From IMG/VR virus record IMGVR_UViG_2606217107_000013: DNA of 4,890 nt, one strand, 5' to 3'. Both the position numbers and the translations under genes were made by a program. This DNA is from a virus. Its lineage: Duplodnaviria > Heunggongvirae > Uroviricota > Caudoviricetes. This document shows positions 1,407 to 2,082 of the stretch, piece by piece. Every line of letters starts with the position of its first letter. The stretch's first letter is position 1. The notes under the pieces are model-generated. The model made no database searches. It was not told where the DNA came from and saw only the letters and a list, made by a program, of their open reading frames with translations.

Positions 1407-1937
1407 ATGAAGGTGATTCTGGCCACCAGGAACCGCTACCTGGAATATGGCCTGCAGGCGTTACTGAAGGAACACAGTGTGATACTGGCGAGGGAGTTTT
1501 TCCTGCCGGAGAACCGCCGTTATATCCCGGACTTTGATGAATCCTGGCTGATAATCTGTGATACGTTGCTGGGCAGACTGATGCGCTGCATGTTCCAGGG
1601 ACGGCATTTTCTGCAACTGGGTGCGGAATCACTCCGTGATGGCGAACAGATAAGTGATGCCATACGTAACGGTGTGTGGACGTATAACAGCGTTGCCCGT
1701 CCGCTGACGATGTCAGAGATGGTGGTGATGTTTGGTTATGTCTACCGTCAGTCGAGACCCTGTCGCCTTGCCAGTGAAATGGGCATTCACACGAAGACGG
1801 TGAATACCTTTCTGTATACGGGAATGGCGAAAAACGGGCTGTATGGTGTGAGCGTGAAACATCTTGCCTGTGCTGATGGCGGTCCTGCCGGATGCGCAGA
1901 ATCTTCTGATAGTTCAGAAGGTGCAGATGATGAATAA
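1407..1937 (+). CDS. Small atypical LuxR/GerE-family transcriptional regulator: degenerate receiver-like N-terminal domain, C-terminal HTH, acidic tail
   Basis: Start chosen at ATG 1407 (MKVILATRNRY...), which has an AGGAAGG Shine-Dalgarno at 1393-1399 with 7-nt spacing; the in-frame ATG at 1377 has none. The C-terminal segment PLTMSEMVVMF...LASEMGIHTKTVNTFLYTGMAKNGL fits the GerE/LuxR HTH pattern (LT..E..VL...A.G.S..EIA..L.IS.KTV..H..NI..KLG). The N-terminus resembles a receiver fold, but the acidic pair normally after the first beta-strand (ILIVDD) reads ILATRN; a later ICD may correspond to the phospho-acceptor position. The tail ESSDSSEGADDE is acidic. The antisense 244-aa ORF (1375..2109) is His/Ser/Pro/Cys-rich and looks spurious. 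Confidence 0.75.
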   Translation: MKVILATRNRYLEYGLQALLKEHSVILAREFFLPENRRYIPDFDESWLIICDTLLGRLMRCMFQGRHFLQLGAESLRDGEQISDAIRNGVWTYNSVARPLTMSEMVVMFGYVYRQSRPCRLASEMGIHTKTVNTFLYTGMAKNGLYGVSVKHLACADGGPAGCAESSDSSEGADDE

Positions 1938-2058
1938 AGAGAGATGCCGGACAATCGGAAGAAAACGTTACACCACAGGCGCAATGTGCTTCATGCTGTT
2001 TGTGTGGCTTGGTGGTGTGCTGGCTCTTGTTGCTACAGCTGCGGTGGTAATGCAGTAA
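1927..2058 (+). CDS. Hypothetical 43-aa small membrane protein: basic N-terminus plus a single C-terminal hydrophobic helix
   Basis: MMNKERCRTIGRKRYTTGAMCFMLFVWLGGVLALVATAAVVMQ. Shine-Dalgarno GAAGGTG (1915-1921) lies upstream of ATG 1927. The start overlaps the last 11 nt of the regulator gene, and the stop (TAA 2056-2058) is followed immediately by a GC-rich hairpin. It has the form of a small tail-anchored membrane peptide. It is short with no recognisable homolog, so the call is low confidence. Confidence 0.35.
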   Translation: MMNKERCRTIGRKRYTTGAMCFMLFVWLGGVLALVATAAVVMQ

Positions 2059-2082
2059 AAAAAGGGGAGCAACATGCTCCCC
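2057..2082 (-). terminator. Perfect GC-rich hairpin GGGGAGC (2064-2070) / GCTCCCC (2076-2082), 5-nt loop, preceded on the + strand by A7 (2057-2063); reads as an intrinsic terminator for the minus strand, or an RNA 3'-end/stability hairpin for the + strand
   Basis: The exact 7-bp stem and A-run are read from the sequence. On the minus strand the hairpin is followed by T7, the canonical arrangement. On the + strand no U-tract follows (GACCAGAAG). No credible minus-strand gene lies to the right in this window, so the function is uncertain. Confidence 0.3.

What the first reader, a model, noticed from the sequence alone, without database searches (positions are those of the whole stretch)
1915..2082. 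Possible overlapping small membrane-peptide gene ending in a hairpin
A 43-codon frame with a good Shine-Dalgarno starts 11 nt before the regulator's stop and encodes a peptide with a basic N-terminus (KERCRTIGRKR) and one hydrophobic helix (MCFMLFVWLGGVLALVATAAVV). Its stop is followed directly by A7 and a perfect 7-bp GC hairpin. Small tail-anchored peptides in phage cargo regions include type I toxins and membrane-protein modulators, which are often missed by annotation. The overlap with the regulator implies translational coupling. The hairpin's T-tract is on the opposite strand, which would fit an antisense RNA terminating here, as in type I toxin-antitoxin loci, but I see no clear antisense promoter.
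Basis: inference. Interest (0 to 1): 0.45.

Follow-up and report, generated by a model that had tools for sequence, protein, structure and literature searches.

The report
Small membrane peptide in Eib cassette
The suspected 43-codon gene is real: it encodes a conserved, tail-anchored membrane peptide that always follows an adhesin gene and a regulator gene in E. coli prophage cargo, but it shows no sign of being a toxin-antitoxin locus and was already catalogued as a hypothetical protein.

Summary
The 43-codon frame (1927-2058), its Shine-Dalgarno, the 11-nt overlap with the upstream gene, the A7 run and the GC hairpin (2064-2082) are all present.

The frame is a real gene. Across ten diverged alleles dN/dS is 0.21, and 0.055 in the invariant core RKRYTTGAMCFMLFVWLGG. 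The start Met, the basic N-terminus and the 26-residue hydrophobic tail are conserved.

It is not new. The DNA is 100% identical to phage P-EibD, where a longer 60-codon version was annotated as ORF-60D. It also matches PHROG 9340, and PGAP calls it 'hypothetical'. No function is known.

It is always the third gene of a cassette: Eib/YadA-type adhesin, then an atypical NarL/FixJ-like regulator, then the peptide. The cassette sits in at least four genomic contexts. Copies stranded in Stx phages without adhesin and regulator are deleted or frameshifted, so its function probably depends on the cassette.

The type I toxin/antisense reading is not supported. I found no antisense promoter, no Rfam hit and no conserved minus-strand element. 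A minus-strand RNA ending here would not overlap the coding sequence.

The hairpin is a conserved, canonical minus-strand terminator. In other contexts it sits 10-18 nt behind a convergent dinI-like gene. Interest is modest.

The parts
197..1318 (+). Eib/YadA-type trimeric autotransporter adhesin gene (373 aa), first gene of the cassette
   Evidence: Pfam YadA_anchor E=4.4e-16. PGAP calls the homologues 'YadA C-terminal domain-containing protein'. A homologous anchor lies upstream of the peptide in every locus long enough to show it.
1352..1376 (+). Plus-strand terminator-like hairpin plus T-run directly after the adhesin gene
   Evidence: GCAGGACTCTGGTCTGC CGTTTTTCAT. A stem_loop feature is annotated at the equivalent place in P-EibD.
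1407..1937 (+). Atypical NarL/FixJ-like regulator (176 aa in this window, 156-175 aa in relatives), second gene of the cassette
   Evidence: PHROG 6585 E=1e-96. No Pfam or NCBIfam hit. AlphaFold model pLDDT 84, with a REC-like alpha/beta domain, a four-helix HTH and a disordered tail at 158-176. Best PDB fold matches are FixJ, RcsB, EvgA, DesR, LiaR and VpsT, prob up to 1.0, E about 1e-3.
1876..1926 (+). N-terminal extension of the 60-codon 'ORF-60D' annotation; probably not part of the conserved protein
   Evidence: Annotated as the 60-aa form in P-EibD and some PGAP records. Other lineages have in-frame stops 2-10 codons upstream of the conserved Met. All four substitutions between the window type and the L023 type are non-synonymous in this frame (sequences).
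1917..1923 (+). Shine-Dalgarno-like GAAGGTG for the peptide gene
   Evidence: Sequence read. Purine-rich SD-like motifs lie at comparable distance in the other lineages.
1927..2058 (+). Small tail-anchored membrane peptide gene (43 codons; the conserved start corresponds to the second ATG at 1930), third gene of the cassette
   Evidence: 28 homologues. PHROG 9340 E=3.4e-30. dN/dS 0.21 overall and 0.055 in the core. N-terminus net charge +2 to +5 and a 26-aa hydrophobic tail in all ten variants. Always downstream of the regulator and a YadA-like gene.
2057..2063 (-). T7 tract (A7 on the + strand) following the hairpin on the minus strand
   Evidence: T5-T7 is conserved in other contexts.
2064..2082 (-). 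GC-rich hairpin: a canonical intrinsic terminator for minus-strand transcription and the 3' boundary of the cassette
   Evidence: It is present after the peptide stop in four unrelated contexts, and homology ends just after it. Pair 7 varies as C-G, U.G and U-A, and the upper stem is lengthened in L008 and L045. It sits 10-18 nt downstream of the stop of a convergent dinI-like gene in L012 and L045-48.

Best explanation
Positions 1927/1930-2058 encode a genuine 42-43-residue inner-membrane peptide. It has a short basic cytoplasmic N-terminus and a single C-terminal transmembrane helix that runs to the last residue (N-in, tail-anchored). It is the third gene of a mobile three-gene cassette: an Eib/YadA-type trimeric autotransporter adhesin, an atypical NarL/FixJ-like regulator, then the peptide. 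The cassette rides as cargo next to tail genes of E. coli prophages.

The peptide is translated immediately after the regulator. In this window and three other lineages that happens by stop/start overlap; elsewhere it uses its own SD.

The nearly invariant, Gly-containing helix core (GAMCFMLFVWLGG) implies a specific helix-helix contact in the membrane. Copies that have lost adhesin and regulator decay. From these two facts I infer that the peptide works with the cassette as a small membrane-protein modulator. It could tune the regulator's activity, or act on an envelope protein needed for adhesin display. This would resemble small membrane proteins co-encoded with regulators, such as RmpD or SafA. 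I do not think it is a self-standing toxin.

The hairpin at 2064-2082 with its T7 on the opposite strand is a conserved intrinsic terminator for transcription converging on the cassette. It may secondarily serve as a 3' stem-loop on the cassette mRNA. It is not the end of an antitoxin RNA.

Shown: coding status, architecture, synteny, decay of orphan copies, and hairpin conservation and polarity. Inferred: membrane topology, the modulator role and its partner, and the terminator's function in vivo.
For: Coding status. dN/dS is 0.21 overall and 0.055 in the 19-codon core at dS about 1.3. The other + frames give ratios above 1. The antisense shadow frame carries stops in L005, L008 and L029. The start Met is conserved in at least nine lineages with otherwise unrelated N-termini.

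Architecture. All variants have N-terminal net charge +2 to +5 and a 26-aa hydrophobic tail with mean Kyte-Doolittle value about 2.1.

Cassette. The YadA anchor, regulator and peptide are colinear in every locus long enough to show them. The contexts include a 933W-like prophage, a dinI/prfC prophage end, a ykgJ-adjacent site and an IS-rich island. The regulator fold is NarL/FixJ-like.

Coupling. Overlap is 11 nt here, TGATG in L005, and ATGA in L008 and L029.

Dependence on the cassette. 933W/Sp5 keeps only the last 12 codons or so. The O104:H4 and O111 Stx phages, where cor replaces adhesin and regulator, carry a frameshifting internal deletion.

Hairpin. It is called as a terminator only on the minus strand. 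It is stable in six of seven variants, z from -3.6 to -5.2, with compensatory change. It lies just downstream of convergent dinI-like genes.

No sRNA. No Rfam hit and no promoter-like site. No Hfq-bound EcOnc sRNA was reported at the equivalent Sp5 position, about 1287530-1287754.
Against: There is no expression, localisation or phenotype data for the peptide anywhere I could find. The partner and the modulator role are pure inference from architecture, synteny and analogy.

Decay of orphan copies is also what neutral loss after a deletion would give, so it only weakly argues for functional dependence. Regulator homologues exist without the peptide, for example next to hpaBC, so the regulator does not need it universally. 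Stop/start overlap is not conserved.

The hairpin lacks a convergent gene in this window's context, so here its terminator role is either insulating or vestigial. L034/L035 have only a weak, different hairpin (z = 0.17). L025/L026 have none, and L029 keeps only a truncated remnant of one.
Confidence: 0.6

Rival explanations
1. Type I toxin-antitoxin locus. The peptide would be a membrane-damaging toxin, and a minus-strand sRNA terminating at the hairpin would be its antitoxin.
For: The peptide is small and hydrophobic. A canonical terminator lies on the opposite strand. There are up to 7 copies per genome. A Hok/Gef gene sits about 5 kb downstream in a related prophage, so such loci do occur in this cargo region.
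Against: No promoter-like site was found on either strand in 1300-2400, and no Rfam match. A minus-strand RNA ending at about 2057 would not overlap the ORF at all. Sequence downstream of the hairpin, where the antitoxin gene would lie, is unrelated between cassette contexts. In the 933W-like context it diverges with indels. The gene is translationally coupled or adjacent to a regulator, rather than standing alone behind a long structured 5' UTR. Copy number follows the number of eib cassettes. No Hfq-bound sRNA is listed at the Sp5 equivalent.
Confidence: 0.06
2. The peptide acts for the prophage rather than for the cassette. For example, it could be an inner-membrane superinfection-exclusion or injection-blocking factor, as other prophage morons near tail genes are.
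For: It sits at a moron hot-spot between tail genes. In O104:H4 and O111 Stx phages the same site carries the exclusion lipoprotein Cor. It is a small inner-membrane protein.
Against: It is never found intact without the adhesin and regulator. The copies left next to cor are frameshifted. The cassette also occurs in an IS-rich, ShlB-adjacent context that is not obviously a phage tail region. There are no PADLOC hits.
Confidence: 0.1
3. The hairpin works on the plus strand. It would be the 3' end or stabiliser of the cassette mRNA, for instance as the trimming stop after Rho-dependent termination, or a weak U-less terminator. Its minus-strand terminator shape would then be incidental.
For: It directly follows the last cassette gene in all contexts, and homology ends after it. 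It folds equally well on the + strand.
Against: No T-run follows it on the + strand in any variant, whereas the A-run that gives T5-T7 on the minus strand is conserved. The scan calls it only on the minus strand. It is ideally spaced behind convergent dinI-like genes. This rival is not exclusive of the main explanation.
Confidence: 0.2
4. The true product is the 60-aa 'ORF-60D' form starting at ATG 1876. In P-EibD-type loci that start overlaps the 156-aa regulator's stop as TGATG.
For: It is annotated this way in AF151675 and several PGAP records. ATG 1876 exists in the window, and most hits in the protein search are 60 aa long.
Against: Lineages L005, L008, L029, L030 and L034 have stop codons 2-16 codons upstream of the conserved Met, so the extension cannot exist there. 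All 4 substitutions in the extension between two alleles are non-synonymous. In this window, 1876-1926 is read in another frame as the regulator's tail. The PHROG 9340 profile is 43 positions long.
Confidence: 0.1

Closest known systems
ORF-60D of phage P-EibD (GenBank AF151675, E. coli ECOR-9) / PHROG 9340 / PGAP hypothetical proteins WP_255397728.1 (43 aa) and WP_000279725.1 (60 aa)
   Same: The DNA is 100% identical over 1876-2238, with the same position after ORF-156D and eibD. The profile match to PHROG 9340 is E=3.4e-30 over 43/43 positions.
   Different: The published annotation is 17 codons longer at the N-terminus, and comparative data here do not support that extension. In this window a 1-nt indel near 1873-1876 lengthens the regulator to 176 aa, which creates the 11-nt overlap. 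No function was ever assigned.
RmpD of the Klebsiella pneumoniae rmpADC operon (from my own knowledge, not tested here)
   Same: A small single-TM protein encoded on a mobile element in one operon with LuxR-type regulators. It acts on an inner-membrane envelope machine to change the cell surface.
   Different: No sequence relationship was detected: the whole-library HMM search found only this family. RmpD's helix is N-terminal, here it is C-terminal. The partner here is unknown.
SafA (B1500) of the E. coli safA-ydeO operon, and similar small membrane-protein modulators such as MgrB, PmrR and AcrZ (from my own knowledge)
   Same: Short single-pass inner-membrane proteins, sometimes co-transcribed with a transcription factor. 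They act through contacts with a larger membrane protein.
   Different: SafA has a periplasmic C-terminal domain that binds PhoQ. This peptide has essentially no extramembrane C-terminus. No homology.
Type I toxins (Hok/Gef, Ldr, TisB, Ibs, ShoB)
   Same: Size and hydrophobicity; prophage or cargo location; multiple copies per genome.
   Different: There is no cognate antisense RNA, promoter or fold-back 5' UTR. The gene is coupled to a regulator, is strictly syntenic with an adhesin cassette, and orphan copies decay.
Intrinsic terminators shared by convergent genes / moron boundary terminators (Juhala et al. 2000 moron concept, cited in PMC4104026)
   Same: A GC stem, a short loop and a T5-T7 run at the edge of a cargo cassette, behind a convergent gene in several contexts.
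   Different: It is oriented against the cassette's own genes rather than terminating them. There is no downstream T-run that would make it bidirectional.

Membership tests
ORF-60 / PHROG 9340 small-ORF family of Eib cassettes | Sequence match to the family profile or its members | tested here: met
   PHROG 9340 E=3.4e-30, 43/43 positions. 100% DNA identity to P-EibD orf-60D. 28 homologues found.
ORF-60 / PHROG 9340 small-ORF family of Eib cassettes | Position directly downstream of the ORF-156-type regulator and an eib/YadA-like gene | tested here: met
   Colinear triad in all loci with enough flank.
Type I toxin-antitoxin system | Small hydrophobic peptide ORF | tested here: met
   43 aa with a 26-aa hydrophobic tail.
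Type I toxin-antitoxin system | Antisense or divergent sRNA gene with its own promoter, base-pairing with the toxin mRNA and conserved with the toxin | tested here: not met
   No promoter-like site. No Rfam match at E <= 1. The minus-strand terminator ends at the stop codon, so the coding region would not be overlapped. Downstream sequence is not conserved between contexts. No EcOnc sRNA is listed at the Sp5 equivalent.
Type I toxin-antitoxin system | Toxicity on overexpression | not testable with these tools
   Needs an induction experiment.
Rho-independent (intrinsic) terminator | GC-rich stem, 3-8 nt loop, followed by a U-tract on the transcribed strand | tested here: met
   Minus strand: 8 pairs, 6 of them GC, 3-nt loop, then T7; -15.4 kcal/mol. 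Plus strand: the stem is followed by GACCAGAAG, so the feature is not met there.
Rho-independent (intrinsic) terminator | Transcripts actually end there | not testable with these tools
   Needs Term-seq or in vitro transcription.
Small membrane-protein modulators co-encoded with regulators (RmpD/SafA-like, a functional class rather than a homology family) | Under 100 aa, single TM helix, same operon as a transcription factor | tested here: met
   Hydropathy. Overlap or adjacency with a NarL/FixJ-like regulator.
Small membrane-protein modulators co-encoded with regulators (RmpD/SafA-like, a functional class rather than a homology family) | Sequence homology to a characterised member | tested here: not met
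   No Pfam, NCBIfam or PADLOC hit. The HMM search of 1.84 billion representatives returned 11 hits at E <= 0.001. Nine belong to this peptide family; the other two are 762-aa and 1,215-aa proteins matching in several short stretches, which are probably spurious.
Small membrane-protein modulators co-encoded with regulators (RmpD/SafA-like, a functional class rather than a homology family) | Physical or functional interaction with a membrane partner or the regulator | not testable with these tools
   Needs two-hybrid, pull-down or genetic tests. The structure tool here folds single chains only, so no complex could be modelled.
NarL/FixJ (LuxR-type HTH) response regulators (upstream gene 1407-1937) | REC-like alpha/beta domain plus C-terminal four-helix LuxR-type HTH | tested here: met
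   Model pLDDT 84. The top 40 PDB matches are NarL/FixJ-family regulators: FixJ, RcsB, EvgA, DesR, LiaR, VraR and VpsT.
NarL/FixJ (LuxR-type HTH) response regulators (upstream gene 1407-1937) | Sequence-level membership (Pfam Response_reg / GerE) and an intact acidic phospho-acceptor pocket | tested here: not met
   No Pfam or NCBIfam hit at E <= 0.1-1. The end of beta-1 reads ATRN instead of the acidic pair, although Asp52 after beta-3 is invariant. It is therefore an atypical, probably phosphorylation-independent relative.

The most novel reading that the evidence does not exclude
The peptide and the atypical NarL/FixJ-like regulator would form a two-piece, membrane-linked control device for the prophage-borne Eib adhesin. 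The tail-anchored peptide would either tether or gate the regulator at the inner membrane, or reprogramme a host envelope machine (for example a polysaccharide chain-length or outer-membrane biogenesis factor) so that the short adhesin is displayed. That would make it a new, cassette-specific small-protein regulator of a virulence-associated surface phenotype.
Probability: 0.2. Interest if true: 0.55.

Novelty: new member of a known kind. Interest (0 to 1): 0.3.

Why it matters
Eib-type adhesins mediate immunoglobulin binding and chain-like adherence in commensal and Shiga-toxigenic E. coli. Their expression is known to be strongly condition-dependent (PMC4352079). The two genes that always travel with them have never been studied, as far as I could find.

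This work shows three things. The small ORF is under strong purifying selection. Its conserved product is the 42-43-aa form rather than the annotated 60-aa form. It decays when separated from the adhesin and regulator. Together these give a concrete, testable candidate for a missing regulatory or biogenesis factor.

It is also a clean example of a real small membrane-protein gene that gene callers treat inconsistently. The practical value is moderate. The family is narrow (70 of 5,426 complete E. coli genomes), and no mechanism has been demonstrated.

Tried and rejected
1. Rfam scan of the whole window at E <= 1 gave nothing.

2. The sigma-70 promoter scan of 1300-2400 found no site on either strand. 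By eye, the best minus-strand candidate is TTCAGG-18 nt-TATGAT around 2221-2191. It is weak and I did not pursue it.

3. The minus-strand 24-codon ORF at 2195-2124 (MMEFAKIAIGITATECCYDILDKT) has an AGGGGA SD and the terminator behind it. I rejected it. In 933W it is truncated and altered (MMEFAKIAIGITETKCLA*). Between 933W-like variants most changes are non-synonymous.

4. I looked for a minus-strand sRNA in Stx phages. The Hfq-CRAC list for O157 Sakai has no entry near the Sp5 equivalent at about 1287530-1287754. The nearest entry, EcOnc53, lies behind lom.

5. A scan of one genome per species (genome contigs) found no relative. A whole-library HMM search found no remote relatives.

6. Pfam, NCBIfam and PADLOC give nothing for the peptide or the regulator. 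A PDB sequence search for the regulator gives nothing.

7. Literature searches for a function of the ORFs downstream of eib genes found nothing. The original Sandt & Hill 2000 paper is not held.

8. RNAalifold on the hairpin: MAFFT put the 20-nt hairpins out of register, so its 'broken' counts are artefacts. I rely instead on the individual folds and the sequences.

9. I considered a programmed frameshift that would fuse the regulator to the peptide, and rejected it. Overlap length varies (1, 4 or 11 nt, or a gap of 50-80 nt), and there is no conserved slippery site.
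Full report
WHAT THE WINDOW IS. The window is the tail-gene region of a 933W-like (Sepvirinae-type) E. coli prophage carrying a cargo cassette.

- 197-1318 encodes a 373-aa protein with a YadA-type membrane anchor (Pfam YadA_anchor E=4.4e-16).
- A plus-strand terminator-like hairpin follows at 1352-1376.
- 1407-1937 encodes a 176-aa protein with no Pfam or NCBIfam match.
- 1927-2058 is the 43-codon frame of the finding.
- 2064-2082 is the hairpin.
- 2239-3864 and 3861 onward are homologues of 933W L0124 and the tail-tip fibre.

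Positions 1876-2238 are 100% identical to the partial sequence of phage P-EibD from E. coli ECOR-9 (AF151675). There the genes are annotated eibD, orf-156D, orf-60D and L0124D.

CHECK OF THE OBSERVATION.

- GAAGGTG lies at 1917-1923.
- ATG lies at 1927, with a second ATG at 1930.
- The stop TAA lies at 2056-2058.
- The upstream gene's stop lies at 1935-1937, giving an 11-nt overlap.
- The A7 run spans 2057-2063. Two of these A's are part of the stop codon.
- The stem is a perfect 7-bp GC-rich stem. ViennaRNA extends it to 8 bp, at -15.4 kcal/mol, with 0 of 200 shuffles folding as well.
- The terminator scan calls it on the minus strand only, where T7 follows the stem.

IS THE ORF A GENE? The window holds 43 ORFs of at least 30 aa, so the frame alone proves nothing. 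Comparative data settle the question.

A protein search found 28 relatives at 55-100% identity. Their alignment shows an invariant core, RKRYTTGAMCFMLFVWLGG. It is flanked by a variable but always basic N-terminus and a variable but always hydrophobic C-terminus.

I took ten distinct nucleotide alleles from fetched loci. Pooled Nei-Gojobori estimates give dS about 1.26 and dN 0.27, so dN/dS is 0.21. For the 19-codon core the ratio is 0.055 at dS 1.28. The other two plus-strand frames give ratios of 1.3-3.6. Variable columns fall 24/18/37 by codon position.

One antisense frame also shows a low ratio, as expected for the frame that shares wobble positions. That frame carries stop codons in L005, L008 and L029, so it is not the coding frame.

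WHERE DOES THE PROTEIN START? P-EibD and some PGAP records annotate a 60-aa product from the ATG at 1876. Other PGAP records annotate 43 aa from identical DNA.

In lineages with unrelated N-termini (MSREEK..., MSSSGN..., MNRDKT..., MKQANL..., MEQKKI...), the Met aligns with the second ATG (1930) to within one residue. In-frame stops lie 2-16 codons upstream. The four substitutions that distinguish two alleles within 1876-1926 are all non-synonymous in the ORF-60 frame. The PHROG 9340 profile, which the peptide matches at E=3.4e-30, is 43 positions long.

ARCHITECTURE. All ten variants have 13-17 N-terminal residues with net charge +2 to +5. A 26-residue hydrophobic segment follows and runs to the C-terminus. 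By the positive-inside rule this predicts an N-in, tail-anchored single-pass inner-membrane peptide with no extramembrane C-terminal domain. This topology is inferred, not shown. The extreme conservation of the Gly- and aromatic-containing first half of the helix suggests a specific helix-helix contact rather than mere membrane insertion.

GENOMIC CONTEXT. In every fetched locus with enough flank, the peptide gene is the third member of a colinear triad: YadA-anchor protein, then the 154-176-aa protein, then the peptide.

The triad occurs in at least four unrelated settings:
- upstream of L0124 in 933W-like prophages;
- at the end of lambdoid prophages next to a convergent dinI-like gene, near prfC or a LytS-type kinase gene;
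- next to ykgJ;
- in an IS66/IS110- and ShlB-containing island.

It is present in 70 of 5,426 complete E. coli genomes, with up to seven copies per genome. That fits strains such as ECOR-9, which carry several eib genes. A profile search of 1.84 billion cluster representatives found only 11 hits at E <= 0.001, two of them probably spurious. A scan of one genome per species found none. The family is therefore narrow.

THE UPSTREAM 'REGULATOR'. An AlphaFold model built from 24 homologues (pLDDT 84.4) shows a REC-like alpha/beta domain, a C-terminal four-helix bundle, and a disordered tail at 158-176. Its best PDB matches are all NarL/FixJ-family regulators: FixJ, RcsB, EvgA, DesR, LiaR, VraR and VpsT. 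Probabilities reach 1.0 but E-values are marginal, about 1e-3. The usual acidic pair after beta-1 is missing (ATRN), while Asp52 after beta-3 is invariant. I take this to be an atypical, probably phosphorylation-independent member.

OVERLAP AND COUPLING. The 11-nt overlap in this window results from a 1-nt indel near 1873-1876 relative to P-EibD-type alleles. Those alleles have a regulator that stops 51 nt upstream of the peptide start.

Long regulators (175 aa) whose stop overlaps the peptide start as TGATG or ATGA occur in L005, L008-L011 and L029. Short regulators with a gap of roughly 50-80 nt occur in L012, L027, L030, L034 and L045.

Coupling is therefore recurrent but not a defining feature. 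An SD-like motif precedes the start in all lineages.

ORPHAN COPIES DECAY. Stx phages of the 933W group keep this region as a scar.

- In 933W and Sakai Sp5, L0123/ECs_1230 is the N-terminal part of the regulator. A second fragment carries the regulator's C-terminus. Only the last 12 codons or so of the peptide gene remain, fused by a deletion.
- In O104:H4 and O111 Stx phages, the exclusion lipoprotein gene cor occupies the site of adhesin and regulator. The peptide gene that follows has a frameshifting internal deletion.

I found no intact peptide gene without the other two genes. The reverse does occur: a distant regulator homologue stands alone next to hpaBC. This pattern suggests the peptide has no selectable function apart from the cassette. 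Neutral decay after a deletion would look the same, so the argument is suggestive only.

THE HAIRPIN. The stem-loop follows the peptide's stop codon in the four unrelated contexts, and sequence similarity between contexts ends just after it.

The lower six pairs (GGGGAG/CUCCCC) are constant. Pair 7 is C-G, U.G or U-A, the upper stem is lengthened in L008 and L045, and the loops differ. Six of seven variants fold with z-scores between -3.6 and -5.2. The A-run on the plus strand is conserved and gives T5-T7 on the minus strand. No T-run follows the stem on the plus strand in any variant.

It is thus a canonical intrinsic terminator for minus-strand transcription only. In lambdoid contexts it lies 10-18 nt beyond the stop codon of a convergent dinI-like gene, and about 90 nt beyond ykgJ. 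It would terminate those transcripts before they run antisense into the cassette.

In this window there is no convergent gene. Here the element is either an insulator or a relic that moved with the cassette. A secondary role as a 3' stem-loop on the cassette mRNA cannot be excluded. Exceptions exist: L034/35 have only a weak, different hairpin, L025/26 have none, and L029 keeps only a truncated remnant.

THE TOXIN-ANTITOXIN IDEA. A type I system needs an antisense or adjacent sRNA gene conserved together with the toxin. Several results argue against one here.

- No promoter-like site is found on either strand, and Rfam gives nothing at E <= 1.
- The only minus-strand ORF with an SD (2195-2124) is not conserved.
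- The region between hairpin and L0124 diverges with indels among 933W-like phages.
- That same region is replaced by unrelated sequence in other contexts.
- The Hfq-CRAC catalogue for O157 Sakai lists no sRNA at the equivalent Sp5 position.
- A minus-strand RNA terminating at this hairpin would end at the peptide's stop codon and could not pair with its coding region or ribosome-binding site.
- The gene's linkage to a regulator, its strict synteny with an adhesin, and the decay of orphan copies all fit a cassette component better than an addiction module.

I put the type I reading at about 6%.

MOST LIKELY MECHANISM. I commit to the following, with the steps marked.

- Shown: the gene is coding and constrained. 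It belongs to the adhesin-regulator-peptide cassette. It is translated next to, and sometimes coupled with, the regulator.
- Inferred: it inserts N-in as a tail-anchored helix. It acts through a specific intramembrane contact as a small-protein modulator. The target is either the cassette's regulator or a host envelope protein relevant to adhesin expression or display.

This is how small membrane proteins co-encoded with regulators work elsewhere, for example RmpD in rmpADC and SafA in safA-ydeO (my own knowledge). It is not homologous to them, so this is a 'works like' statement, not membership.

NOVELTY AND SCORE. The ORF has been in GenBank since the P-EibD deposit. It forms a PHROG and is annotated by PGAP. 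The literature I could search assigns it no function.

What is new here:
- the evidence for selection;
- the corrected start;
- the definition of the three-gene cassette and its narrow distribution;
- the decay of orphan copies in Stx phages;
- the reinterpretation of the hairpin.

It is a new, uncharacterised member of a known kind (small single-pass membrane proteins in regulatory operons), not a new kind of system. Interest: 0.3.

Noticed in passing
window 1860-1880, versus L001 and L002: A 1-nt indel plus a cluster of substitutions distinguishes this window's 176-aa regulator (tail ...KHLACADGGPAGCAESSDSSEGADDE) from the 156-aa P-EibD-type allele (...VRRLVGA*). The extra tail is predicted disordered. 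Long and short regulator forms both recur across lineages.
   Followed up: partly
L003 4649-5060 (933W); L037 about 7270-7600 (Sakai Sp5): 933W gene L0123 and Sakai ECs_1230 are fragments of the cassette's regulator. The region upstream of L0124 in O157 Stx phages is a decayed remnant of an Eib-type cassette that has lost the adhesin gene.
   Followed up: yes
L038 1171-1398 and L039 1150-1377: In O104:H4 and O111 Stx phages the same site, between the tail-fibre genes and L0124, carries the exclusion lipoprotein gene cor instead of adhesin and regulator. A frameshifted peptide-gene remnant and the intact hairpin follow it. The site is a cargo (moron) exchange hot-spot.
   Followed up: partly
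window 2124-2195, minus strand: A 24-codon ORF (MMEFAKIAIGITATECCYDILDKT) with an AGGGGA SD lies on the minus strand, with the minus-strand terminator about 40 nt downstream of it. It looks gene-like. However, it is truncated in 933W and accumulates mostly non-synonymous changes, so it is probably not a gene.
   Followed up: yes
window 2165-2238: The 74 nt upstream of the L0124-like start are 100% identical between this window and 933W, although the adjacent 2083-2165 stretch is only about 60-65% identical with indels. This could reflect recombination with the highly conserved L0124 gene, or a conserved 5' leader. Unexplained.
   Followed up: no
window 2161 versus 2239: The 933W record starts L0124 at an upstream GTG (567 aa). 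That start is equivalent to 2161 here and would overlap the spacer. PGAP and the SD (AAAGGAA) favour the ATG at 2239 (541 aa).
   Followed up: no
small-ORF alleles: N-terminal and C-terminal halves of the peptide occur in different combinations. For example, the C-terminus VTLCAVAAIIMQ occurs with four different N-termini. The C-terminal half co-varies with the hairpin type and the downstream context. This suggests the invariant core of the gene serves as a recombination joint for cassette exchange.
   Followed up: partly
L041-L044 3001-3495: A distant homologue of the regulator (about 54% identity, 164 aa) sits alone next to hpaBC in many E. coli assemblies. No YadA-like gene is called upstream, and there is no peptide gene downstream.
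   Followed up: partly
L045-L048, about 3520-3650 in L045: An intact 41-codon peptide gene (MEQEKIRCGKRKYTAGAMCFMLFVWLGGVVTLCVLAALITQ) lies between the regulator and dinI. It was not called by the gene predictions attached to these assemblies. This illustrates that annotation often misses the gene.
   Followed up: yes
L001 11801-11941: A Hok/Gef family gene is annotated about 5 kb downstream, after lom, in the closest related prophage. It lies outside this window.
   Followed up: no
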